A stretch of DNA of 64,000 nucleotides. Source: an uncultured Bacteroidota bacterium. Lineage in GTDB: Bacteria; Bacteroidota; Bacteroidia; JABEUT01. Position numbers and translations under genes: made by a program. The stretch lies in contig CAIWVW010000006.1 of NCBI GenBank assembly GCA_903916255.1, positions 24,026 through 88,025 of the forward strand, given 5' to 3'. The notes beneath the pieces were generated by a model that was not told where the DNA came from, did not search any database, and saw only the letters and a program-made list of their open reading frames with translations. Shown piece after piece: positions 1 to 54,055 of the stretch; the stretch's first letter is position 1; the number at the start of each line of letters is the position of its first letter.

Positions 1-181
1 GTTGTTCTTCGCTAACCTTATGCGGATTGGCATAATGTTTTTTAACTATGTTGTAATATAGACGCTTGATAGCGAGCAAATATACTTTATGTATTGGATA
101 GTAAACCAATAAAAGCGGCAGTGGAAATGCCATAACAGCTATGAAAAACACGGTGAATATGTTTTGTACAGATAATAACAT
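1..181 (-). CDS. Small membrane protein, partial (runs off left edge); paralogue of 50326..50601
   Basis: Not in ORF track; manual translation MLLSVQNIFTVFFIAVMAFPLPLLLVYYPIHKVYLLAIKRLYYNIVKKHYANPHKVSEEQ; A-rich leader; ungapped similarity to the 91-aa ORF at 50326. Confidence 0.75.
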   Translation of the reverse strand, partial: MLLSVQNIFTVFFIAVMAFPLPLLLVYYPIHKVYLLAIKRLYYNIVKKHYANPHKVSEEQ

Positions 182-385: not shown

Positions 386-730
386 TTAATTAATTTCAGG
401 AAAGTTGAACGTAACATTTTGGTCTTTAAACTTAAAAGCTACCACATAGTTATCTGAAACATTTTCGGCGCCTTCAAAAAACATGTGCAGCGGGGTGCGT
501 GCCGTTTTAAAATAGGTAGCTATTGTAATATAATTCTCTACACGCGATTTCGGAGCTTTTCCGTTAATGGTGCAATGTCCGTCGGCTATGGCGGTAATGG
601 CTTCGTTTATAAGCATAAGGTCAACACCTCTAACGGTGTTCCTCACTTTTTTGGGCAAGTCTTCAACAAATTCTTTTCTCGATTTGATAGTATGGGCGCT
701 GTTTTTAACAGTAGCAGGTATGGAATGCAT
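386..730 (-). CDS. Hypothetical protein (114 aa)
   Basis: ATG after A-rich leader; same strand as neighbours; no family recognised. Confidence 0.65.
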   Translation of the reverse strand: MHSIPATVKNSAHTIKSRKEFVEDLPKKVRNTVRGVDLMLINEAITAIADGHCTINGKAPKSRVENYITIATYFKTARTPLHMFFEGAENVSDNYVVAFKFKDQNVTFNFPEIN

Positions 731-824: not shown

Positions 825-1838
825 TTAAATGGTGGCGGGTTCGCTTAAGTCGTGAATAGTGCACTGGAAGCCCATCATCATATCTTCTGTGGAAAATATA
901 ACTACGTCTTGTTTTACTTTTTTGCGCAACCCTGTGCGGGTTACCAATTCGAATTCGGAGGTTTGTTCCTTTATTTTGTTCTTAAATTGAGTATAGTATC
1001 CGTTTTTAATAGATTCTACATAATCAGCGGCAACCAAAAAGGTAAAGTGTTTTCCAGTAATTTCTTCGGGCGTATAGCCTGTAAGTTTTGAAATGTTGGG
1101 TGTAGCAAAGGTTATTTTGCCGTAATAATCGCACGTATATATAAAACTGCCAACATTCTGGGCAATAGTCCTGTATCGTATTTCACTTTCACTCACTTGT
1201 TTTTCCGATTCTATCCTCTTTTTCATGTCTCCATTGAGCTTAAACAGAACGAAAAAAATAATAAGAAAAGCAATCAGTTCGCCTAGAATAATGGTAAAAT
1301 TGGTTTTACTATTATATAATTCGCCTTGTTGGGTAAACCCGGTGCGTTCCTCGCGCTCCCGTTTGTTGATATTGGCAACCAATGTTCGTATGGTGTCCAT
1401 CAGGGCAATACCGTCTTTGGATGAAACCATTTTCTGCGCACTGTCAAAAGAGAGTTTCCTTACTTTGGCAAGGGTATCTATAAAATGCAACTTTACATAG
1501 ATGTGGTTTGCAAGTATAGTAGCATCTTCCAGCAGGTCTGTGTCATCACCCAGGTCTTTCTGGAGGTTTTTTACAATTCGGTTAATCTTGGCAACTGAGC
1601 TGTCTGAAGGAACCAGATACTTTTCATTTCCGGTGATGATACAGTTCATCACACCTTCGTCGGCAGTGGATGTTATGGCATACATACGTTCTATACGTGC
1701 TATCTGGTGCTCTGAATTAAACGCTTGGTTAGCCAATAGTTCTGTGCGTTTGCTGTTGCTTATGGAATAGTATGTGGCAACGGAAACAATGGCGAGGGAC
1801 AGCAGAAAAACAATTACAATGTATTTATTTATTTTCAT
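825..1838 (-). CDS. Membrane sensor with CHASE3 and PAS domains, no kinase or output domain
   Basis: N-terminal TM; CHASE3-like segment (NCIITGNEKYLVP); second TM; PAS (YTCDYYGKITFATP..GYTPEEITGKHF) ending at the C-terminus. Confidence 0.85.
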   Translation of the reverse strand: MKINKYIVIVFLLSLAIVSVATYYSISNSKRTELLANQAFNSEHQIARIERMYAITSTADEGVMNCIITGNEKYLVPSDSSVAKINRIVKNLQKDLGDDTDLLEDATILANHIYVKLHFIDTLAKVRKLSFDSAQKMVSSKDGIALMDTIRTLVANINKREREERTGFTQQGELYNSKTNFTIILGELIAFLIIFFVLFKLNGDMKKRIESEKQVSESEIRYRTIAQNVGSFIYTCDYYGKITFATPNISKLTGYTPEEITGKHFTFLVAADYVESIKNGYYTQFKNKIKEQTSEFELVTRTGLRKKVKQDVVIFSTEDMMMGFQCTIHDLSEPATI

Positions 1839-3072: not shown

Positions 3073-4329
3073 ATGAAAATAGAGACATTCAGGGCATTCA
3101 AGAGCAGGAACTATCGCTTATATTTTACAGGACAATCCATATCACTCATCGGGACATGGATGCAGAAGACTGCTGTTCCCTGGGTAATTTATGTCCAGAC
3201 ACATTCCCTATTTATGCTCGGATTGTCGGCCTTTGCCACTCAATTTCCAAGTTTTCTTTTTTCACTTTTCGGTGGCGTCGTCTCCGACCGTTATAATAAA
3301 TACAAGGTTCTGCTTGCAACGCAAATACTATCACTCGTGCAGGCTTTATTACTTTCCATACTTGTTTTACTCGAACATTACACGGCTTGGGAAATAATGG
3401 CGGTAAGCGTAATATTGGGTATCATCAATGCGTTTGATGTTCCCGCAAGGCAGTCATTGGTATACAACATGGTGAGCAATAAGGATGATTTGCCGAATGC
3501 CATTGCACTCAACTCATCCATGGTGAACCTTGCCAAAATTGCAGGGCCGGCTTTTGCGGGCCTTGTGCTTGAAAAACTGGGCGCCGGCTTATGTTTTATG
3601 CTGAACGCAGTAAGTTTTCTTGCGGTGATAATTTCCTTGCTTTTCATGCGTTTTGATAAGCCTATAACTTCCGACAGGTCAAAAAAGCCAATCAAGGAAT
3701 TGAAAGAAGGATTTACCTATATAACCACTACTCCTGAAATAGGATTTATACTTTTATTTATAAGCATTATGAGCCTGCTGGTGCTTCCGTATGACGCGCT
3801 GCTGTCGGTTTATGCCAAAGATATTTTCAGTGGGAATGCCTCTACGCTTGGTTATTTGAACAGCTTTATTGGCGTAGGCGCAATAGGCGGAACTATTTTT
3901 TTAGCCTCTTTGAAAGATAAATCGAGTTTGAAAACTATTTTATTAATAGCCACATTTATATTTGGTGTCGGATTGATTTCATTTTCCCATATAGCCGATT
4001 TTAAATGGGCCTGTGTGTTTGCAGTAATGATGGGTTTCGGCATGATGGCGCTGGCAACTATAAGCAATACAATTCTTCAAACCACCTCTGTTCCTGAAAT
4101 GAGAGGCAGGGTAATAAGTTACTTTGCCATGGCTTTTTTCGGGATGCGCCCGCTCGGTTCTTTGCTTATCGGGTGGATTGCAAAATATACCGGAGCTCCT
4201 GATACCGTTTTAGCGGAAGGCATAGCCGCATTGCTTGTTGCAGGCGTATTTTCCTACTTTATGCGGAAGGATATTCTGAAGAAAAGGAACAGGGAGGCAA
4301 TCGATAATGCCGCTTTAGAAATAAGCTAA
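3073..4329 (+). CDS. MFS transporter
   Basis: About 12 hydrophobic segments; GGVVSDRYNK loop motif; AFDVPARQS; PEMRGRV. Confidence 0.92.
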   Translation: MKIETFRAFKSRNYRLYFTGQSISLIGTWMQKTAVPWVIYVQTHSLFMLGLSAFATQFPSFLFSLFGGVVSDRYNKYKVLLATQILSLVQALLLSILVLLEHYTAWEIMAVSVILGIINAFDVPARQSLVYNMVSNKDDLPNAIALNSSMVNLAKIAGPAFAGLVLEKLGAGLCFMLNAVSFLAVIISLLFMRFDKPITSDRSKKPIKELKEGFTYITTTPEIGFILLFISIMSLLVLPYDALLSVYAKDIFSGNASTLGYLNSFIGVGAIGGTIFLASLKDKSSLKTILLIATFIFGVGLISFSHIADFKWACVFAVMMGFGMMALATISNTILQTTSVPEMRGRVISYFAMAFFGMRPLGSLLIGWIAKYTGAPDTVLAEGIAALLVAGVFSYFMRKDILKKRNREAIDNAALEIS

Positions 4330-41614: not shown

Positions 41615-41938
41615 ATGAACATTTTTGTATCAAACTTGAATTTTAAGGTTCGCAGCGAAGACTTAAAAAACCTGTTCTCCCAGTATGGTGAAGTATTATC
41701 CACCAAAGTTATTACCGACAAATTCTCGGGAAAATCGAGAGGTTTTGGTTTCGTTGAAATGAAAAATGACGAAGAAGGCAACAGAGCCATTGGCGAATTA
41801 GACCAAAAGGATTTTGAAGGCCGTAACATCACCGTATCAGTAGCTAAGCCACGCACCGAAGGCGGAGGCGGCAATGGCGGCGGTAACAGAGGCGGTTTCC
41901 GCAAAAGCAACGGCGGCGGTAACGACTACAGAGACTAA
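41615..41938 (+). CDS. RRM RNA-binding protein with Gly-rich tail
   Basis: RNP2 IFVSNL; RNP1 RGFGFVEM; GGG/RGG tail. Confidence 0.95.
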   Translation: MNIFVSNLNFKVRSEDLKNLFSQYGEVLSTKVITDKFSGKSRGFGFVEMKNDEEGNRAIGELDQKDFEGRNITVSVAKPRTEGGGGNGGGNRGGFRKSNGGGNDYRD

Positions 41939-41961: not shown

Positions 41962-41990
41962 AAAGGGGAACAGAAATGTTCCCCTTTTTT
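41962..41990 (+). terminator. Rho-independent terminator
   Basis: AAAGGGGAAC-AGAAAT-GTTCCCCTTT followed by T-run. Confidence 0.88.
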
Positions 41991-42075
41991 GTTTTATTCC
42001 CCCGCCAGGTAGGAGAGGATAGGGTAAGGTCTCCTGATTTTATTTTACCTTTGGCGAAGTACAAAATAAACTGAA

Positions 42076-47634: not shown

Positions 47635-47984
47635 GTTTGTGTGTGTTAATAATTCCTTATTGAGTAGTAACCCGGATAAGGTTTGAATTTTGGAGGTGTT
47701 TGATTAGTTGAAAGTATGAATACCAATTTTTAAAATCATTCATACTTGGTGGTAAAACAAGCCTCTTGGTAATAGAGAGGTAAAAATGATTTTCGGCAAT
47801 GTAAATAAATAATTCTTTTGCCGGTAACAATTCAAGTTCTTTTCTTGCTTAAAAGTGAGTTAAGGGGAAGGTGTTTTTCTAAATTTCTGATAGTCAGTAT
47901 TTATTTTATTTTATTTAATTCTCAAGCAAGCCGGAATAACTGACATAAATCAGAAAACACAATGTCATAATAAGGAATATGGAT

Positions 47985-48036: not shown

Positions 48037-49998
48037 TTAGTGAATAGCCACCTTAACTACACGTTGAATATGGTCATTACCAATTCTCACCAGATAAATG
48101 GATTTGGCAAGCGATGAAACATTGAAAGAAGTTTGCAATGTTTGTGAATTGGAAACTGTTTCCTGTTGCATAATTGTTTTACCATTTTCATCGAAAAGCT
48201 GAACCACTAACCTTTCGCCCTGCGGGAAATCGACACCCTTTATGTTTAGCGTGCCTCCGTTTTGATAGGCTGTAAGTGATGCATGGTACGAATCTACAAC
48301 AGCAGGTACATCGGTAGAGCATACAGGAACCTGGAATGAGAACACCCTGGTACCAGCATTAATTCCGCTTCCGGCGCCATTTTCAGCATACATGGTAGTT
48401 CCCCAGAAGGTTTTGCCGTCAATAGGGTCAACCGAGAGGTGTGAATAATCGCCCCAGCGGTTACCATTACCTTGTGGCGTATTTACAAGCGTATTACCGG
48501 TAGCGGCAGTACCTTCCGTAAGGGTCATGGTGTTAAGTGCATCGCAATATCTTCTGCCGGTATAACGAATTCCGGGATAAACCGAAGTAGGGTCGGAAAC
48601 GGTGTAAAGCATACCAATATCTCCATTTTGGTCCATAGCTATAGAGGCTTCCCAACGGCTTATTCCATCGTTTGGCCCATAGGTCGATTCCTGGTAAACG
48701 CTCCATTTTTTAGTAGTTGTATCCTGGTGCAATTCATACCAACGGATAGCTGATACAGGAGCCGATAATGTTCCGATATTTACAGGGAACTGCATTACTG
48801 CTGAATTGTAGCTGGCCCATCTTAAATAAGGAATACGGTATCCGAAGAAACCATCTGATGAGGCCAAATAATTGGAGGTTTGGTTGCCTGGTTGAGGAAG
48901 GTTGGCATCAAAATCGGCCGGGAAATTAGAATTGAATGTGGCCATTGTCAGTGTTTGATACTTTGCGTCTATCGAACCGCTACGGCTAGTCCAGTTTACG
49001 CTGATTTGTTCGATAGAAATTGAATCTACAGAACCACCGCAACCCCAGGTATCATCCCAGTAATAGAAAAGATATTCCGGAGCATCTGCGGGAGGAAGGG
49101 TTCCATCACAATCCAGCATTTGCGGACAGAAAAAGTTACCGCCGCAGTTTTCCAAATTGTAAGGGCCATAGTTCCATGGCATGGCTACAAAAGCCGCATG
49201 CTTGCTTCCTACTAACATACTGTCGCGTTCGTAAGCTACTACCATATCGGGCGAGCTGCAATTACAGGTCATGTAATAACCATTTCCCCACACTGCATAT
49301 TTTGGATAATCGTCGAAGCTGTTGGCGTATGGCTCGAATGCATAAATCCAATAGGCTCCTGCAGGGTCGTTTGTTTGAGACACTGCAAACAAAAGTGTAT
49401 CTATATTGTTGTTTGGCGGAATGTAGCCTTCAAATTCGGAAATAATCCAACGGTCGGCTATTTTATCATATATGGTAACCGGGTCTCCGCAATCACATTC
49501 ACCCACTTTTCCAAAAAGAACATCAAGGTCTGTTTGAGGAATATAGGAAGCTCCGGTTTTGTCCCAGGCTGCAAAGGTGCTGTTAATGGTTTGCACATAG
49601 TAGTTCGAACCAATCATCCCGTTAGGGTCCTGCGGATAAGAACCAAGGCCACCCTGACCTTCAAAATTCTCGATAGGGGCAGGAGAAGTCAGGCTTCCGT
49701 AGGTTGTTTGACGGGCGGCATCAGGGATAGGAACATCTATTGCGGGGTGATGCGATGTTCTGGCAAAGTTTTCCATAGATGGACCATCTGCTGCAGGGCC
49801 GAAATGGGTTGCCAATTTGTTTAAGCCTTTGGCATTACGCTCGGCAATAAGGTCTCTGAGGGGCTTTGTAGCCTTTACATAGTAGCATTCTTTGTACATA
49901 GACCCATTGGCATTGTGAATTTCAATGGGCGCATTATTTTGCGCTGACAGCGAAAATGCACACGAAATGCCAACAGAAAGTGTGAGTAATTGTTTCAT
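48037..49998 (-). CDS. T9SS-secreted Cys-rich protein of unknown function (paralogue 2)
   Basis: Same motifs as 43731..45689 (DPNGMIGSNYYVQ, FFCPQMLDCDGTLPP, RWGDYS); CTD ..YLVRIGNDHIQRVVKVAIH. Confidence 0.88.
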   Translation of the reverse strand: MKQLLTLSVGISCAFSLSAQNNAPIEIHNANGSMYKECYYVKATKPLRDLIAERNAKGLNKLATHFGPAADGPSMENFARTSHHPAIDVPIPDAARQTTYGSLTSPAPIENFEGQGGLGSYPQDPNGMIGSNYYVQTINSTFAAWDKTGASYIPQTDLDVLFGKVGECDCGDPVTIYDKIADRWIISEFEGYIPPNNNIDTLLFAVSQTNDPAGAYWIYAFEPYANSFDDYPKYAVWGNGYYMTCNCSSPDMVVAYERDSMLVGSKHAAFVAMPWNYGPYNLENCGGNFFCPQMLDCDGTLPPADAPEYLFYYWDDTWGCGGSVDSISIEQISVNWTSRSGSIDAKYQTLTMATFNSNFPADFDANLPQPGNQTSNYLASSDGFFGYRIPYLRWASYNSAVMQFPVNIGTLSAPVSAIRWYELHQDTTTKKWSVYQESTYGPNDGISRWEASIAMDQNGDIGMLYTVSDPTSVYPGIRYTGRRYCDALNTMTLTEGTAATGNTLVNTPQGNGNRWGDYSHLSVDPIDGKTFWGTTMYAENGAGSGINAGTRVFSFQVPVCSTDVPAVVDSYHASLTAYQNGGTLNIKGVDFPQGERLVVQLFDENGKTIMQQETVSNSQTLQTSFNVSSLAKSIYLVRIGNDHIQRVVKVAIH

Positions 49999-50217
49999 TT
50001 TTTGTATGGTATTGGTATGTTAGTGTTGCAAGTATATGAAATTAAAATGAAATTAAAAGAGATAAGAATCTCATAATTATAAACAAATAGTTATTTCATG
50101 CCGAAAACATGAGCGATGTCATTTTTGGATGTATTAATTTGTAAATATAGCAATACTAAACTAAATAGTAAAATAGTTAAAATATAGTATTAAATGATAA
50201 AAAACGGCAATGTGCGG

Positions 50218-50305
50218 CTGATTAATATCAGCGGTGAAAATGATAAATCTCACTTGTGTCCGGGTGTCAAATCATGATTTTTATTTAACCAGTACTGTTC
50301 TTTTG
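50218..50305 (+). promoter_or_regulatory. FNR/CRP-like site array and variant -7 box
   Basis: CTGAT-TAAT-ATCAG (50218), ATGAT-AAAT-CTCAC (50240), GGGTG-TCAA-ATCAT (50262) at a 22-bp period; TTCTTTTG at 50298..50305. Confidence 0.6.
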
Positions 50306-50325
50306 CGCCACCAAATTAAAAGAAC

Positions 50326-50601
50326 ATGCCAATTACTTTAAGTATCCAGTCTTTTCTTTCGTTTGCATTTGTTGCATTAATTTTTCTACCCTTGCCGATA
50401 TTGATAGTAACTAACCTGTTAGGATATTTGTCTGATTGGTTTATGTTTAACAGTTACCACAAGATAATAGAAAAAAAATACGCGCATCTGCAGTCGATTG
50501 AAGTGGAGCACCTGAAAGAAATTTTTCCGCATAAAAATGAAAAGCATTTGGAAAGCATGGCTGATTATATTAATGGAAAAAGAAATTCGAACGGAAATTA
50601 A
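50326..50601 (+). CDS. Small membrane protein (91 aa), paralogue of 1..181
   Basis: N-terminal TM with PLP motif; A-rich leader; similarity to the ORF at the window start. Confidence 0.8.
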   Translation: MPITLSIQSFLSFAFVALIFLPLPILIVTNLLGYLSDWFMFNSYHKIIEKKYAHLQSIEVEHLKEIFPHKNEKHLESMADYINGKRNSNGN

Positions 50602-50612
50602 AATAAAACATT

Positions 50613-50691
50613 GGGCAGGAATCATAAACATGCTGAGCTACATCAATCTCATAGGCGTAAACGATTTTGCTTGGTAGATTCTTGCCCTTTT
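50613..50691 (+). ncRNA. Candidate structured RNA, copy 1 (3' UTR hairpin)
   Basis: 11-bp closing stem GGGCAGGAATC/GATTCTTGCCC followed by TTTT; core TCTCATAGGCGTAAACGATT. Confidence 0.55.
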
Positions 50692-50722
50692 CCTTTATGT
50701 TTTTCTAATAAAATCAACAGAA

Positions 50723-50766
50723 CTGACGTATATCAGTAAATTTTAAAATAAGTGCAATTACATTTG
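50723..50766 (+). promoter_or_regulatory. Class II-type promoter: FNR-like box plus consensus -7 box
   Basis: CTGAC-GTAT-ATCAG (50723..50736) and TACATTTG (50759..50766); no ORF follows. Confidence 0.7.
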
Positions 50767-50770
50767 CAAC

Positions 50771-50880
50771 CTCAAAAAAGAGTTTAAGCTCTTTAAATGC
50801 GGGGGGAGGTATTAGCTAATGTCCAAGGTTGTTCTCATAGGCGTTAACGATTCAGGCAGGCGATATTCTCCCCGGATTTT
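50771..50880 (+). ncRNA. Candidate sRNA, copy 2 (about 110 nt)
   Basis: Promoter upstream; 5' hairpin AAAGAG/CTCTTT; stem CGGGGGGAG/TTCTCCCCG enclosing TCTCATAGGCGTTAACGATT. Confidence 0.62.
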
Positions 50881-50936
50881 AGAAGGAAAAAATTTTCTTC
50901 TTCAAAAATCTCCGAATACTTAATTTGATTATCGCA

Positions 50937-51989
50937 TTACGAGAATTTGCGGATGCGTTCTAACCCAAACGGATTGAGAACTTTAATTTCCCTTCCGTCT
51001 GTTTCAATCAGCCATTCCCGTTTAAAATCAGACAAGGTGCGTATGAGTGATTCGGTAGATGAGCCTGCAATGCTGGCTAATTCTTCCCGTGAAATCCGAA
51101 TATTATCGTTAGGTGAATTTTTGCGGTGCAATTGTAAAAGCACATCGGCTACGCGTGAACGAACAGAATTATACGCAAGGCTTAGCAGCCTTTCTTCGCG
51201 TTCCGATATATTATTGGCAAGCAATTTTACAAACCGGGTAGATACTTCATGGTTGGAATATATTAGCGACAGGAAATCGTCCTTCGGAATAAGCGCCACT
51301 TCCGCTTCATCGAAAGCACTTGCAGAATCGGTAAACGATGCGCCTTCCAACAAAGCTACATATCCAAAGAAATCTCCGGGGCCATATATTTCGGTAATAA
51401 ATTCTTTCCCTTCCTGATTTACTTTCCAGGTTTTCACTTTTCCTTTTATTACGAAATAAACGGATGTCGGTTTTTCACCTGCTTTATATAAGTCTTCTTT
51501 TCCCCGGAATGATTCGATATGATAATCGGCAGCAACGGATAACGGCAGGCTGAATTTTTTCGCCTCATCTATAAATTCTGCTAAGCCGCTCAAATCGCGG
51601 GAGTAATTCTTCCGGAAAAACTCGGCCCGGCGCAAACGTGTGCGTATGGCATTTAGCAAATCCGCTTCCCTGACGGGTTTGGTAAGATAATCGTCTGCGC
51701 CCAGGTTCATACCCTTGCGCAAGTCGGTTTTTTCGGCTTTGGCCGAAAGAAATATAAATGGGATACCTGCCGTTGATGGGTTTTGCGACACATGCTGAAG
51801 CACACCGTAACCATCAAGACCGGGCATCATAATGTCGCAGATAATAAGGTCGGGCCTTTCGCTCAGGGCCAGTTCTACGCCTTTGTTTCCATTGTCGGCA
51901 GTTACTACCGTATAATTGGCAAGGTCGATAACTTCCGAAATATTCTCGCGCATTTCTGCGTCGTCTTCTATAAGTAGGATTTTTTTCAT
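50937..51989 (-). CDS. Response regulator fused to Crp/Fnr-family domains (REC-cNMP-HTH)
   Basis: LLIEDD..LIICDIMMPGLDG; cNMP-binding fold (GDFFG); ISREELASIAGSSTESLIRTLSDF HTH. Confidence 0.93.
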   Translation of the reverse strand: MKKILLIEDDAEMRENISEVIDLANYTVVTADNGNKGVELALSERPDLIICDIMMPGLDGYGVLQHVSQNPSTAGIPFIFLSAKAEKTDLRKGMNLGADDYLTKPVREADLLNAIRTRLRRAEFFRKNYSRDLSGLAEFIDEAKKFSLPLSVAADYHIESFRGKEDLYKAGEKPTSVYFVIKGKVKTWKVNQEGKEFITEIYGPGDFFGYVALLEGASFTDSASAFDEAEVALIPKDDFLSLIYSNHEVSTRFVKLLANNISEREERLLSLAYNSVRSRVADVLLQLHRKNSPNDNIRISREELASIAGSSTESLIRTLSDFKREWLIETDGREIKVLNPFGLERIRKFS

Positions 51990-52003
51990 AACTATATATC
52001 GGT

Positions 52004-53767
52004 TTAGTTCAATGTGTTAGTAGTGGGTATATTAATGGTAAACGTAGTGCCTACACCCTCTGTGCTCTTAAAATTAATGCTGCCTTTCATCAGGTCGGTA
52101 TATCGTTTTACAATATTAAGACCTAATCCCGTACCTCTGACATTAATAGCATTTTTTGCCCTGAAAAAATTTTCGAACAGATGAGATTGGTCAGTTTCTG
52201 GAATACCCATTCCATGGTCGGTTACATCTATTTCCAGTTCTTTATCATTCAGCTTGGTTGTAAACTCGATTTCCGAACTCTCGGGCGAGTATTTACTTGC
52301 ATTCGAAAGCAGATTTACTATTACATTCTTCATCATTTGGTTGTCCAGAAATACGCCCGTATTATTGCCGATATGCTTATAGGTTATTTTTTGCCCGGTT
52401 TTCAATGTCGAGTTTAATTCATCTATCAAATCTTCTGAAAATAAAACAATATTAAACAGTGTGGGTTTCACTTCTATTTTGCCTTGTTCCAGCTTCTCCA
52501 GCGAAATAAAGCTGTTTAATATATCTACCAAATGGTCCACCGATGATTTTATACGCAGTAAATGCTTGTTGCTTTTATCGCGTATTACATCCACTTCATT
52601 GCTGTTGCGTATGTATTTTTCTATCAGTTCGGTAGAGGATATAATGGTTCCCAGCGGTGTTCTGAATTCATGCGAGGCGATAGAAACAATAAGCGATGTA
52701 AGTTCATTTAAGTGCTTTTCTTTTTCCAGCGATGTCCGTACATCCTGCTCGGCCCTTTTCTGTGCGGTAATATTTTGTTCTACCAGCAAAATTTCGTCAA
52801 TCTCTGTATTTCCGCTGTTCCATAAAGCAACAGCGCTGGCTGTATATAACAGCCCGCGATAGGTAAATTCAAAAGTAGAGTTGATACTTTTCCTTTCGAA
52901 GACCTTCATAAGCTCCCTGGCTATTTCACCTCTCTTTTCCGGCGGAAAACGGGTTAAGTAATCGGTACCCATTAAATCTTCGGGTGCAATCTCGAATTTT
53001 GAAAGTTCTTTTCCGTTGGCAAAAACATATTTTAAGTCGCGGTTAAGAACATTGATGGTACCATCGGGAAAGTTAGTGGCTATCATTTCATACCGCCGCT
53101 GACTGTCGTGTAGCTTTTGTTCGGCCAAGTTTCTTTTTCGGCGGTCGTTCAAATGCAATATGTAGGTAAGAATAAGTAAAAGCACACAAACCACAATACC
53201 CGCAAAATAGAATTTACCGGTTGCACCTGCATTATGCACCATGTCGTCTTCTTTCTCTTCCAGCAATGCTTTGGTCGATTTTTGAAGGCGGTCTATCATG
53301 GCATTTATCGAATCGGAAACATTCTTCTCTGTATCGGATGCTATGATACGCTGGGCGGCCTCGAAACCGTTTTTGCTGCTGCGTAAAATGATACCCGTGT
53401 TCAGTAGTTCGATGCGCATGGATATTAACGAATCGATATGCGTGAACGATTTGCGTTGCTGCAGGGTCGGATTGCCTATTGTCAGCAGTTCGCCCGCTAT
53501 TTTGGTTAACTTGTTGCGGTCGCTTATATAAGGGTCGAGGTACATGTTCTTACTCGTAATTATATACCCCTTTTCGGCATTTTCGGCATCCTTTAGGGTA
53601 GATTGGATGGTTCCCAACGTTTCGATAAGCAGGTGCGTATTTGTTACATCTTTGTCGGATGCTATGTAGGTGGAAGTACTCCGGAATGACTCGAAGCCAA
53701 TAAACCCAAGAATGGCAATAGCTGCAACGTATCCAATCAGGATTAATCTGTCGTAAATACTTTTCAT
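52004..53767 (-). CDS. CHASE3-PAS sensor histidine kinase
   Basis: DAENAEKGYIIT..YLDPY (CHASE3); PAS-like segment; ASHEFRTPLG; NLLSNASKYS; GTGLGL. Confidence 0.93.
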   Translation of the reverse strand: MKSIYDRLILIGYVAAIAILGFIGFESFRSTSTYIASDKDVTNTHLLIETLGTIQSTLKDAENAEKGYIITSKNMYLDPYISDRNKLTKIAGELLTIGNPTLQQRKSFTHIDSLISMRIELLNTGIILRSSKNGFEAAQRIIASDTEKNVSDSINAMIDRLQKSTKALLEEKEDDMVHNAGATGKFYFAGIVVCVLLLILTYILHLNDRRKRNLAEQKLHDSQRRYEMIATNFPDGTINVLNRDLKYVFANGKELSKFEIAPEDLMGTDYLTRFPPEKRGEIARELMKVFERKSINSTFEFTYRGLLYTASAVALWNSGNTEIDEILLVEQNITAQKRAEQDVRTSLEKEKHLNELTSLIVSIASHEFRTPLGTIISSTELIEKYIRNSNEVDVIRDKSNKHLLRIKSSVDHLVDILNSFISLEKLEQGKIEVKPTLFNIVLFSEDLIDELNSTLKTGQKITYKHIGNNTGVFLDNQMMKNVIVNLLSNASKYSPESSEIEFTTKLNDKELEIDVTDHGMGIPETDQSHLFENFFRAKNAINVRGTGLGLNIVKRYTDLMKGSINFKSTEGVGTTFTINIPTTNTLN

Positions 53768-54041: not shown

Positions 54042-54055
54042 ATGATTAAAATCAG
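54042..54055. promoter_or_regulatory. FNR-like palindrome
   Basis: ATGAT-TAAA-ATCAG in the kinase / DUF6089 intergenic region; second site ATGAT-TTGT-GTCAT at 53906..53919. Confidence 0.55.

What the first reader, a model, noticed from the sequence alone, without database searches (positions are those of the whole stretch)
50613..50880. Two tandem 75-nt hairpin RNAs with different stems but the same 20-nt core, beside the REC-Crp/Fnr gene
Seen: copy 1 (50613..50687) closes with GGGCAGGAATC/GATTCTTGCCC plus a U-tract and forms the 3' end of the small-protein mRNA. Copy 2 (50800..50874) closes with CGGGGGGAG/TTCTCCCCG. Both are 75 nt and carry TCTCATAGGCGT(A/T)AACGATT (19 of 20 identical) at offsets 34 and 33. 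Different stem sequences with the same length and core suggest selection on RNA structure. Copy 2 has its own consensus -7 box with an FNR-like box at -41.5 and no ORF. Established: FnrS is an FNR-activated sRNA in enterobacteria, and 3' UTR-derived sRNAs exist. Inference: a regulator-induced sRNA pair; the CUCAUAGGCGU core could pair with start-codon regions (CCUAUGAG) or titrate an RNA-binding protein such as the RRM protein.
Basis: partly seen in the sequence, partly recalled or inferred. Interest (0 to 1): 0.86.

Follow-up and report, generated by a model that had tools for sequence, protein, structure and literature searches.

The report
Sibling hairpin sRNAs sharing one loop
Two related ~75-nt RNA hairpins keep an identical 12-nt loop: one ends a small membrane-protein mRNA, the other is a stand-alone small RNA behind a Crp/Fnr-type promoter, and together they form an uncatalogued small-RNA family found only in a narrow group of uncultured freshwater, soil and peat Bacteroidota.

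Summary
Hairpin 1 (50613-50687) and hairpin 2 (50800-50874) lie on the + strand and share the 20-mer TCTCATAGGCGTWAACGATT. It occurs twice in the window against 0.02 expected.

They are paralogues, not unrelated stems. The closing stems align in register, with three compensatory double changes and a shared G.U.

Across 21 distinct homologues from about 10 lineages the architecture holds, and CUCAUAGGCGUW is always in the unpaired apical loop (one copy reads UUCAUAGGCGUA). The hairpins are 79-96% identical to the window's, against 11-77% (11-35% in all but the closest relative) for the spacer and 78-85% for the regulator gene. No Rfam family matches, and no ORF is conserved.

Hairpin 1 begins 12 nt after the stop codon of a 91-aa membrane protein. 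That gene has two conserved TGA-N6-TCA boxes upstream.

In 7 lineages hairpin 2 has such a box 22-23 nt before a Bacteroidota -7 box. In others it follows hairpin 1 directly, is the only hairpin, or is a stand-alone gene elsewhere.

Peat metatranscriptome contigs show a ~107-nt RNA ending at the U-tract.

The most likely reading is a pair of sibling sRNAs controlled by the adjacent CHASE3 kinase and REC-Crp regulator, acting through the loop. Targets are unknown. This is a new sRNA family of a known kind.

The parts
50218..50231 (.). Box A, CTGATTAATATCAG. A perfect Crp/Fnr-type palindrome (TGAT-N4-ATCA core) upstream of the small-protein gene.
   Evidence: Equivalent boxes occur in L095 (CTGACGAATATCAT), L232 (CTGATTAAAATCAT) and L071 (TGATATTAATCA).
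50240..50253 (.). Box B, ATGATAAATCTCAC (TGA-N6-TCA). Its centre is 22 nt from that of box A. It is the better conserved of the two boxes.
   Evidence: Box B is conserved as TGACAAATCTCA in L024/L223 and L232, TGACAAATATCA in L071 and TGATAAATCTCA in L095.
50326..50601 (+). Gene for a 91-aa protein with a hydrophobic N-terminal segment and no Pfam family. Hairpin 1 forms its 3' end.
   Evidence: Homologues (44-70% identity) lie in front of the hairpins in L024, L071, L095, L212, L213, L215, L219 and L232.
50613..50687 (+). Hairpin 1 (copy 1). P1 has 11 bp, followed by a 7-nt internal loop, then P2 with 8 bp, then a 30-nt apical region that carries CUCAUAGGCGUA unpaired.
   Evidence: fold; 99.3% of cells paired and 4 pairs with double changes across 8 sequences. 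A soil metatranscriptome contig runs from the coding region through the hairpin.
50688..50705 (+). U-rich tract after hairpin 1 (TTTTCCTTTATGTTTTTC). This is the likely intrinsic termination point of the small-protein mRNA.
   Evidence: U-rich tails follow copy 1 in all homologues.
50723..50736 (.). Crp/Fnr-type box CTGACGTATATCAG of the hairpin-2 promoter. It is centred about -41.5/-42.5 if the transcription start lies 5-6 nt after the -7 box.
   Evidence: The box is 22-23 nt from the -7 box in the window, L095, L212, L213, L121, L122 and L124.
50759..50766 (+). Bacteroidota-type -7 promoter box TACATTTG (consensus TAnnTTTG).
   Evidence: The consensus is recalled from the Bacteroides promoter literature. 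The transcription start was not mapped.
50777..50794 (+). Small 5' hairpin of the predicted stand-alone sRNA (AAAGAG-loop-CUCUUU).
   Evidence: fold. The stem is conserved and the loop varies in L095, L212 and L213. L121-type RNAs carry a different 5' hairpin.
50800..50874 (+). Hairpin 2 (copy 2). P1 has 9 bp, P2 has 4+2 bp, P3 has 2 bp and P4 has 7 bp (three of them G.U). The 12-nt loop CUCAUAGGCGUU is unpaired.
   Evidence: 95.5% of cells paired and 3 pairs with double changes across 13 distinct sequences. Model R1 scores 78-105 bits in 13 loci. Peat metatranscriptome contigs cover it.
50875..50885 (+). Short U-tract (GAUUUUAGAAG) ending the predicted ~110-nt sRNA. It lies 52 nt before the convergent regulator gene.
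   Evidence: Relatives have longer U-tracts (7-8 U in L095, L024, L212, L213 and L219). The X14 contig ends right after this tract in the L121 type.
50937..51989 (-). Response regulator with REC, cNMP-binding and HTH_Crp_2 domains. It is the presumed binder of the TGA-N6-TCA boxes.
   Evidence: Pfam. It is 94-98% identical in L024 and L095.
52004..53767 (-). CHASE3-PAS-HisKA-HATPase histidine kinase, upstream of the regulator and probably in one operon with it.
   Evidence: Pfam. The same gene pair is present in all syntenic loci.

Best explanation
The two hairpins are sibling members of one lineage-restricted small-RNA family that has not been catalogued.

Shown:
- They are paralogous RNA structures on the + strand.
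- Their stems are kept by compensatory and G.U changes.
- The 12-nt apical loop CUCAUAGGCGU(A/U) is conserved and unpaired in all 21 distinct copies from about 10 lineages; one copy (L213 copy 1) has U for the first C.
- The hairpins are more conserved than the flanking coding DNA.
- RNA covering them is present in soil and peat metatranscriptomes.

Inferred from anatomy:
- Hairpin 1 is the intrinsic terminator and 3' UTR of a small membrane-protein mRNA. Its promoter region carries two Crp/Fnr-type TGA-N6-TCA boxes.
- Hairpin 2 is the body and terminator of a separate ~110-nt sRNA. In this genome it is transcribed from its own -7 promoter, with one such box at the class II position of about -41.5.
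- Both are therefore switched on together by the adjacent CHASE3 kinase and REC-cNMP-HTH(Crp) response regulator.

Inferred mechanism (least secure): the exposed loop, which begins with a YUNR-type CUCA, is the working part. It contacts other RNAs by loop-initiated base pairing to sites resembling ACGCCUAUGAG. Such sites could include an AUG start codon, which would alter translation or stability of unlinked targets.

Likely history: one hairpin in the 3' UTR (as in L215 and L232), then a tandem duplication (as in L024), then capture of a regulator-dependent promoter (as in the window and in the stand-alone L121 type).
For: - The core occurs 2 times in the window against 0.02 expected.
- The + strand folds at -25.6 and -26.8 kcal/mol, the - strand at -17.4 and -14.2 kcal/mol.
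- All 20 sequences folded adopt the same two architectures, with the loop nucleotides mostly unpaired.
- Copy 1: 99.3% of cells paired, 4 pairs with double changes, and 3 of 500 shuffles reach the covariation score.
- Copy 2: 95.5% of cells paired, 3 pairs with double changes, and 1 of 500 shuffles reaches the score.
- Sliding the 3' partners drops pairing to 37-63%.
- Between the paralogues, 3 of 9 P1 pairs differ by double compensatory changes and the G.U is kept (sequence).
- Nucleotide identity to the window is 79-96% in the hairpins, 11-77% in the spacer (11-35% in all but L095), 18-72% in the small-protein coding region and 78-85% in the regulator gene.
- No conserved ORF: the ATG is absent in L212, L024 and L121, and a 4-nt indel separates copy 1 of the window from that of L024.
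- The box lies 22-23 nt from TAnnTTTG in 7 lineages.
- Boxes A and B are conserved upstream of the small-protein gene.
- A stand-alone gene with the same promoter lies next to unrelated genes in L121-L124.
- The X14 peat metatranscriptome contig consists of a read-1 adapter, 16 nt, and 91 nt identical to L121 340-250, ending just after the U-tract. That gives a ~107-nt RNA at depth 8.4.
- X15, X16 and X13 contigs also cover the hairpins.
- No Rfam match at E <= 10.
Against: - No target was found. Loop-complementary sites are not enriched in the window (8 against 9.5 expected). The best start-region match is only 9-10 bp and partly uses paired bases.
- The covariation rests on few, closely related sequences and on alignments fitted to the model.
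- P1 of copy 2 and P4 are almost invariant, so they say little about structure.
- Transcript ends come from assembled contigs without direction, and metatranscriptomes can contain DNA.
- X15 and X16 contigs read 77-87 nt past the hairpin.
- The box promoter is missing in L024, L071, L215, L219 and L123.
- Close relatives whose regulator is >=90% identical lack the module next to that gene (L220/L229, L227/L228).
- Binding of the regulator to the box is untested.
Confidence: 0.55

Rival explanations
1. The hairpins are protein-binding RNAs. The invariant loop, together with the invariant AA/CA internal loop, is a recognition site for an RNA-binding protein. That protein could be an RRM-type chaperone as in Bacteroides, a nuclease or a termination factor. 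The RNAs would then titrate, recruit or be stabilised by the protein rather than pair with mRNAs.
For: - The loop is conserved in all 21 distinct copies (one substitution, in L213 copy 1) while the stems drift. That degree of conservation fits a protein contact at least as well as a seed.
- No complementary target was found.
- An RRM_1 protein is encoded in the window (41615-41938).
- From general knowledge, Bacteroidota lack Hfq and ProQ.
Against: - The RRM gene is 9 kb away and is not linked to the hairpins in any other locus examined.
- Known titrating sRNAs carry many repeats of a short motif, whereas each of these RNAs has one loop.
- There is no direct evidence for any protein partner.
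Confidence: 0.2
2. The hairpins act only in cis, as unusually long intrinsic terminators or 3'-UTR stability elements of the small-protein mRNA. Hairpin 2 could also serve as a bidirectional terminator or antisense brake for the convergent regulator gene. They would have no trans function.
For: - Hairpin 1 starts 12 nt after the stop codon and is followed by a U-tract.
- In L215 and L232 a single hairpin ends the mRNA.
- In L024 the two hairpins are 15 nt apart with no promoter between them.
- An A-tract before hairpin 2 and a U-tract after it extend the stem.
- Read-through transcripts exist. In the window they would run antisense into the regulator gene.
Against: - A terminator needs no invariant 12-nt loop and no conserved inner helices.
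- L121-L124 carry the hairpin as a stand-alone unit with its own box and -7 promoter, away from the small-protein and regulator genes.
- The - strand cannot form P4, and overall it folds poorly.
- The paralogous small-protein gene does without such a hairpin.
Confidence: 0.15
3. The conserved core works at the DNA level as a protein-binding site, or it encodes a short peptide (LIGVND is readable in both copies).
For: - Both copies can be read as ...LIGVND... in one frame.
- Copy 2 of the window has GGAGG 9 nt before an ATG.
- GTTAAC in copy 2 is a DNA palindrome.
Against: - The ATG is absent in L212, L024 and L121.
- In L095 the frame stops after 13 codons.
- A 4-nt indel just upstream of the core shifts the frame between the window and L024.
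- The palindrome is lost in copy 1 (GTAAAC).
- Compensatory stem changes and strand-specific G.U pairs are not explained by a DNA site.
Confidence: 0.03

Closest known systems
FnrS (enterobacterial FNR/CRP-family-activated sRNA, Rfam RF01796)
   Same: It is a small RNA whose promoter carries a Crp/Fnr-family palindrome at the class II position. It ends in an intrinsic terminator and acts as the RNA arm of a transcription factor's regulon.
   Different: There is no sequence or structure similarity, and no Rfam hit at E <= 10. The regulator here is a phosphorylation-driven REC-cNMP-HTH fusion paired with a CHASE3 kinase, not an oxygen-sensing Fe-S FNR. The presumed seed lies in the terminator loop, not in a single-stranded 5' or central region. 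The phylum lacks Hfq (general knowledge).
DapZ/GcvB and other 3'-UTR-derived sRNAs (CpxQ, SroC, NarS) of enterobacteria
   Same: One sibling is the 3' end of an mRNA and shares its terminator. The other is a stand-alone gene that carries the same conserved functional sequence. DapZ likewise carries a GcvB-like seed.
   Different: The two RNAs here are true paralogues produced by tandem duplication and lie side by side. Processing of hairpin 1 from the mRNA has not been shown. The known cases depend on Hfq.
LhrC family, RsaE/RoxS and RNAIII of Firmicutes (seeds in hairpin loops, including the terminator loop)
   Same: The conserved unpaired motif is presented in the apical loop of stable hairpins, and multiple sibling copies occur.
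   Different: Those loops are C-rich or UCCC motifs that pair with Shine-Dalgarno sequences. Here the loop is CUCAUAGGCGUW, with no anti-SD character. Bacteroidota rarely use SD sequences (general knowledge).
Known Bacteroidota RNA motifs and sRNAs (Flavo-1, Bacteroidales-1, Bacteroides-1/2, Bacteroid-trp, GibS, etc.)
   Same: They occur in the same phylum, are intergenic, and have -7-box promoters.
   Different: None matches by covariance model. The distribution here is restricted to a few uncultured lineages. Eighty loci with 47-68% identical regulators in Cytophagales, Chitinophagales and Flavobacteriales lack the hairpins.
Sibling sRNAs such as OmrA/OmrB and Qrr1-5
   Same: They are tandem or multiple paralogues with an identical functional core and diverged remainder, under one two-component or regulator input.
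   Different: In those cases the conserved part is a 5' single strand and the copies each have their own promoter. Here one copy rides on an mRNA, and the copy number (1 or 2) and promoter status vary between close relatives.

Membership tests
Any Rfam 15 family (including FnrS, Flavo-1, Bacteroidales-1, Bacteroides-1/2) | Covariance-model score at or near the family's gathering threshold. | tested here: not met
   Searches used the permissive E-value mode on window 49000-52500 and on L071, L213 and L211. They returned only chance hits (ST7-AS2_2 at 13.9 bits, ceN41 at 20.2 bits). One search (whole window, gathering threshold) returned 0 hits.
Intrinsic (Rho-independent) terminator | A G+C-rich stem directly followed by a U-tract on the transcribed strand, downstream of a gene. 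| tested here: met
   Copy 1 has an 11-bp stem followed by UUUUCCUUUAUGUUUUU, 12 nt after the stop codon. Copy 2 has a 9-bp G-rich stem followed by 4 U in the window and 7-8 U in L095, L024, L212, L213 and L219. The X14 RNA contig ends right after the U-tract. The hairpins are atypically long (75 nt).
Stand-alone trans-acting sRNA gene | Own promoter and terminator, with no conserved ORF. | tested here: met
   A -7 box and a box 22-23 nt upstream are present in 7 lineages. The terminator is as described above. The ORF is not conserved. The promoter is missing in L024, L071, L215, L219 and L123.
Stand-alone trans-acting sRNA gene | A discrete, abundant transcript of defined ends. | tested here: inconclusive
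   The X14 contig has an adapter-defined 5' end and a 3' end at the U-tract, giving ~107 nt at depth 8.4. X15 and X16 contigs read through. Contigs carry no direction and DNA carry-over is possible. No RNA run of the window's own organism was found.
Stand-alone trans-acting sRNA gene | A conserved single-stranded seed with complementary sites in target mRNAs. | tested here: inconclusive
   The seed-like loop is conserved and unpaired. No enriched or convincing complementary site exists in the 64-kb window.
3'-UTR-derived sRNA | Lies in the 3' UTR and shares the terminator of a protein-coding mRNA. | tested here: met
   Copy 1 lies 12 nt after the stop codon of the 91-aa ORF. The arrangement is the same in 8 further loci. 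The X13 contig spans the end of the coding region and the hairpin.
3'-UTR-derived sRNA | A stable fragment released by processing, or an internal promoter. | not testable with these tools
   This needs 5'-end mapping (dRNA-seq or TIER-seq) or a Northern blot in a carrier organism.
Class II Crp/Fnr-dependent promoter | A palindromic TGA-N6-TCA site centred near -41.5 that replaces the upstream promoter element. | tested here: met
   The box centre is at 50729.5 and the -7 box at 50759-50766. That places the box near -41.5/-42.5 if transcription starts 5-6 nt after the -7 box. The spacing is conserved at 22-23 nt in 7 lineages. The transcription start itself was not mapped.
Class II Crp/Fnr-dependent promoter | The regulator binds the site and activates transcription. 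| not testable with these tools
   The regulator has an HTH_Crp_2 domain. Similar boxes recur next to orthologous regulators across Bacteroidota. This is correlative only.

The most novel reading that the evidence does not exclude
The locus captures the birth of a stand-alone sRNA gene from an mRNA terminator. The steps would be a regulator-controlled 3'-UTR hairpin (single in L215 and L232), a tandem duplication (L024), capture of its own class II Crp/Fnr-type promoter (the window), and in another lineage an unlinked gene (L121-L124). The loop CUCAUA... is identical over its first six nucleotides to the start of the tRNA-Met anticodon loop CUCAUAA (recalled, not checked here). It would recognise AUG start-codon contexts (CCUAUGAG) of a regulon. 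That would give a CHASE3 kinase/REC-Crp two-component system an RNA arm in a phylum without Hfq or ProQ.
Probability: 0.25. Interest if true: 0.6.

Novelty: new member of a known kind. Interest (0 to 1): 0.42.

Why it matters
Few sRNAs are known in Bacteroidota outside gut Bacteroides, and almost none in the uncultured freshwater and soil lineages.

This family has a clear anatomy: sibling hairpins with an invariant loop presented on a terminator. It also has a predicted transcriptional input, a widespread but uncharacterised CHASE3 kinase/REC-cNMP-HTH(Crp) two-component system with a TGA-N6-TCA box.

The variable states across close relatives are 3'-UTR only, tandem, own promoter, and unlinked gene. 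They make it a compact natural series for studying how 3'-UTR elements become independent sRNA genes.

The practical impact is limited. The carriers are uncultured, no target is known, and the kind of element is well established: regulator-dependent sibling sRNAs and 3'-UTR-derived sRNAs.

Tried and rejected
- tRNA or tmRNA: ARAGORN finds none in the window.
- Known RNA family: three Rfam scans were negative.
- Dispersed repeat or mobile element: only 2 copies occur in 64 kb by pattern and by covariance model with filters off. In species-representative genomes the exact core occurs only at this one locus per genome.
- Peptide coding: rejected because the start codon is missing and the frame shifts in homologues.
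- Function on the opposite strand (3' UTR or terminator of the regulator gene): unlikely, given poor - strand folds and G.U pairs, and given stand-alone copies away from any regulator gene.
- Wider phylogenetic spread: 80 loci around 47-68% identical regulators gave no hit with model R1 and no core-like motif.
- Hairpin behind the paralogous small-protein gene: absent.
- Local targets: an RNAduplex scan of the window, a start-region scan and a pattern search gave nothing above chance.
- RNA runs for the window's own sequence: none for hairpin 2.
- Literature searches for a described system returned nothing relevant.
Genome-wide copy number, regulon and target searches in the window's own genome could therefore not be done.
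- The first combined MAFFT alignment of both copy types put P1 out of register. It was replaced by per-type alignments.
Full report
**1. The observation**

- Hairpin 1 (50613-50687) closes with GGGCAGGAAUC/GAUUCUUGCCC and is followed by UUUUCCUUUAUGUUUUU.
- Hairpin 1 begins 12 nt after the stop codon of a 91-codon ORF (50326-50601).
- Hairpin 2 (50800-50874) closes with CGGGGGGAG/UUCUCCCCG and is followed by GAUUUUAG.
- The 20-mer TCTCATAGGCGT(A/T)AACGATT occurs only at 50647 and 50833, even with three mismatches allowed. The chance expectation is 0.02.
- On the + strand the hairpins fold at -25.6 kcal/mol (z -3.1) and -26.8 kcal/mol (z -2.0). Their complements reach only -17.4 and -14.2 kcal/mol.
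- ARAGORN finds no tRNA.
- Rfam finds nothing in the region, in three homologous loci, or in the whole window.

**2. The two hairpins are paralogues**

The closing stems align in register when read from the outer end.
- Pairs 2, 3, 7 and 8 are identical, and so is the G.U at position 6.
- Pairs 1, 4 and 5 differ by double compensatory changes: G-C/C-G, C-G/G-C and A-U/G-C.
- The second helix is also recognisably the same: UGCUGAGC/GCUUGGUA in the window's copy 1 (UACUAAGC in most relatives) against UAUU(A)GC/GC..GAUA in copy 2.
- The copy-2 model detects copy 1 (E 0.007), and the copy-1 model detects copy 2 (E 7e-6 to 5e-3).

'Different stems' therefore overstates the difference. The inference of selection on structure still holds.

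**3. Homologues**

Sequences were gathered by three routes:
- pattern scans of species-representative genomes and of JGI metagenomes;
- contig look-ups through the small protein;
- contig look-ups through the >=90% identity cluster of the regulator.

This gave 21 distinct hairpin sequences from about ten lineages. All are uncultured Bacteroidota from lake, soil and peat samples. The arrangements vary:
- Both hairpins between the small-protein gene and the convergent regulator gene, with a promoter-bearing spacer: the window, L095, L212 and L213. L219 has the same layout but no recognisable box.
- Both hairpins only 15 nt apart with no promoter between them: L024 and L223-226. In L071 the spacer is 63 nt, also without a recognisable promoter.
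- A single copy-2-like hairpin ~95 nt after the small-protein gene: L215-218 and L232.
- A stand-alone copy-2-type hairpin next to unrelated genes (an MFS transporter and a dihydroorotase-like protein): L121-L124.
- No hairpin and no small-protein gene beside a >=90% identical regulator: L220/L229 and L227/L228.

Eighty loci around 47-68% identical regulators from Cytophagales, Chitinophagales, Flavobacteriales and others have no match. The family is therefore narrow.

**4. Evidence for selection on an RNA**

- Every sequence folded adopts one of the same two architectures.
- The segment CUCAUAGGCGU(A/U) sits in the apical loop, with most loop nucleotides predicted unpaired (0.95-1.0 in nearly all copy-2 sequences, lower in copy 1).
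- The following AACGAU is paired with a variable upstream partner.
- Copy 1 (8 sequences): 99.3% of cells form standard pairs, four pairs show double changes, and 3 of 500 shuffles reach the covariation score.
- Copy 2 (13 distinct sequences): 95.5% of cells are paired, three pairs show double changes, and 1 of 500 shuffles reaches the score.
- Sliding the 3' partners drops pairing to 37-63%.
- These figures are moderate. The sequences are few and related, and alignments A5 and A6 were fitted to the models. The MAFFT-based counts point the same way but more weakly.
- Five to seven G.U pairs per copy-2 hairpin, three of them in P4, fix the strand.
- Compared with the window, the hairpins are 79-96% identical at the nucleotide level. 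The spacer between them is 11-35% identical (77% in the closest relative), the small-protein coding region 18-72% and the highly conserved regulator gene 78-85%.

**5. Not a peptide and not a repeat**

- The window's 34-codon ORF through hairpin 2 has a GGAGG upstream. Its ATG is absent in L212, L024 and L121, and in L095 it stops after 13 codons.
- Copy 1 shows a 4-nt indel just before the core.
- The window has only two copies with filters off.
- In each representative genome that carries the core, it is found only at this locus.

**6. Transcriptional input**

- Hairpin 2 is preceded by TACATTTG (50759-50766). This matches the Bacteroidota -7 consensus TAnnTTTG (recalled from the literature).
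- 22 nt upstream of that lies the palindrome CTGACGTATATCAG (50723-50736).
- The same box at 22-23 nt from a -7 box is found in L095, L212, L213, L121, L122 and L124.
- If transcription starts 5-6 nt after the -7 box, the palindrome is centred near -41.5/-42.5. That is the class II position of Crp/Fnr-type activators (established for CRP and FNR, inferred here).
- The small-protein gene carries two such boxes 22 nt apart: 50218-50231 and 50240-50253. The second is conserved in L024, L071, L095 and L232.
- The paralogous small-protein gene (window 1..181, - strand) has ATGATGTAAATCAT upstream.
- The adjacent operon encodes a CHASE3-PAS histidine kinase and a REC-cNMP_binding-HTH_Crp_2 response regulator.
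- Similar boxes recur immediately beside orthologous regulators in distant Bacteroidota. There they precede small genes such as YtxH-like proteins.
- That this regulator binds the box is a reasonable inference, but it is untested.
- Nothing links the system to oxygen.

**7. Transcripts**

- No RNA run holds the window's hairpin 2.
- A soil metatranscriptome (X13) has a 210-nt contig from a relative. It runs from the end of the small-protein coding region through hairpin 1 to 23 nt beyond the last window position it matches, 50691.
- Three peat metatranscriptomes hold the L121-type hairpin.
- In X14, a 127-nt contig (depth 8.4) consists of Illumina read-1 adapter sequence, 16 nt of leader, and 91 nt identical to L121 340-250. 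It ends one base after UUAUUUUUCA. That corresponds to an RNA insert of about 107 nt with a shared 5' end and a 3' end at the terminator's U-tract.
- If the library is dUTP-stranded (not verifiable here), the adapter orientation places the RNA on the predicted strand.
- X15 and X16 contigs continue 77-87 nt past the hairpin, so termination is not complete in all relatives.
- Contigs have no direction and DNA carry-over cannot be excluded. I rate 'discrete transcript' as partly supported.

**8. Mechanism**

What the loop does is not shown. I favour loop-initiated base pairing with unlinked RNAs for three reasons:
- The loop is conserved and single-stranded on a stable hairpin.
- It begins with a YUNR-type CUCA. 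This motif is known from antisense-RNA loops (recalled, not tested here).
- Two siblings keep the loop while everything else drifts. This is the pattern of seed conservation seen in OmrA/B, Qrr, LhrC and DapZ/GcvB.

Against this, I found no complementary site above chance in the window.

A protein-recognition role for the loop explains the near-invariance equally well and remains a serious rival.

A purely cis role as terminator is hard to reconcile with the stand-alone L121-type genes and with the invariant loop.

**9. Comparison, novelty and verdict**

Functionally the closest analogues are:
- FnrS, a Crp/Fnr-family-activated sRNA;
- 3'-UTR-derived sRNAs that share a seed with a stand-alone sRNA (DapZ/GcvB);
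- Firmicute sRNAs that present seeds in hairpin and terminator loops (LhrC, RsaE, RNAIII).

It is a member of none of these families: Rfam is negative, and the regulator type, phylum and motif all differ.

It is best classed as a new sRNA family of a known kind. It has an attractive evolutionary series running from 3'-UTR hairpin to independent gene.

Interest is moderate. The element is real, conserved and uncatalogued. However, it is narrow in distribution, sits in uncultured organisms, and has no identified target.

Noticed in passing
window 1-181 (-), 316-329, 386-730 (-), 825-1838 (-); L214 1852-2100: A second module lies at the window's start. It holds a paralogous 82-aa small membrane protein with its own box ATGATGTAAATCAT upstream, a 114-aa protein of no known family, and a 337-aa CHASE3-PAS protein that lacks kinase domains. 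The paralogue has no hairpin with the conserved core behind it.
   Followed up: partly
L126-L205 (for example L162 and L170 at about 4750; L136, L138, L149, L157 and L169 at about 4180-4280): The REC-cNMP-HTH(Crp) regulator is conserved at ~50% identity across Cytophagales, Chitinophagales and Flavobacteriales. TGA-N6-TCA boxes often lie just beyond its 3' end, in front of small convergent genes. In Niastella these genes encode YtxH-like proteins (Pfam PF12732). This suggests a widespread, uncharacterised two-component regulon.
   Followed up: partly
window 47940-47953 and 54042-54055: Two further near-consensus boxes are present: CTGACATAAATCAG between the two T9SS-cargo genes, and ATGATTAAAATCAG between the kinase gene and a DUF6089 outer-membrane-protein gene. 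Neither has a -7 box at the 22-23-nt spacing seen at the sRNA promoter.
   Followed up: partly
window 50266-50277; equivalent sites in L024, L071, L095, L219: The motif CAAATCAT(G/A)G(A) is conserved between box B and the start of the small-protein gene in the loci read. It includes a short, non-conserved upstream ATG. Its role is unexplained.
   Followed up: no
window 41615-41938 (+): A 107-aa RRM_1 protein (Pfam E 6e-20). Two weak hairpin hits of model R1 lie just downstream (41964-41995 and 42011-42045, E about 1-2). These are probably ordinary terminators.
   Followed up: no
L122 385-404 (+) and 8309-8328 (-): This metagenome contig carries the sRNA and its flanks as a terminal inverted duplication. 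It is probably an assembly artefact.
   Followed up: no
L220/L229 2604 onward; L227/L228 2799 onward: In close relatives (regulator >=90% identical) the small-protein/sRNA module is replaced by a SprB/CHU_C-type gene or by transketolase genes. The module is therefore gained or lost on short evolutionary timescales.
   Followed up: partly
L121 position 313 (X16 contig): Several reads of one peat metatranscriptome share an insert end inside the 5' arm of the hairpin, in the internal loop before CUAAAG. This could be a processing or reverse-transcriptase stop site.
   Followed up: no
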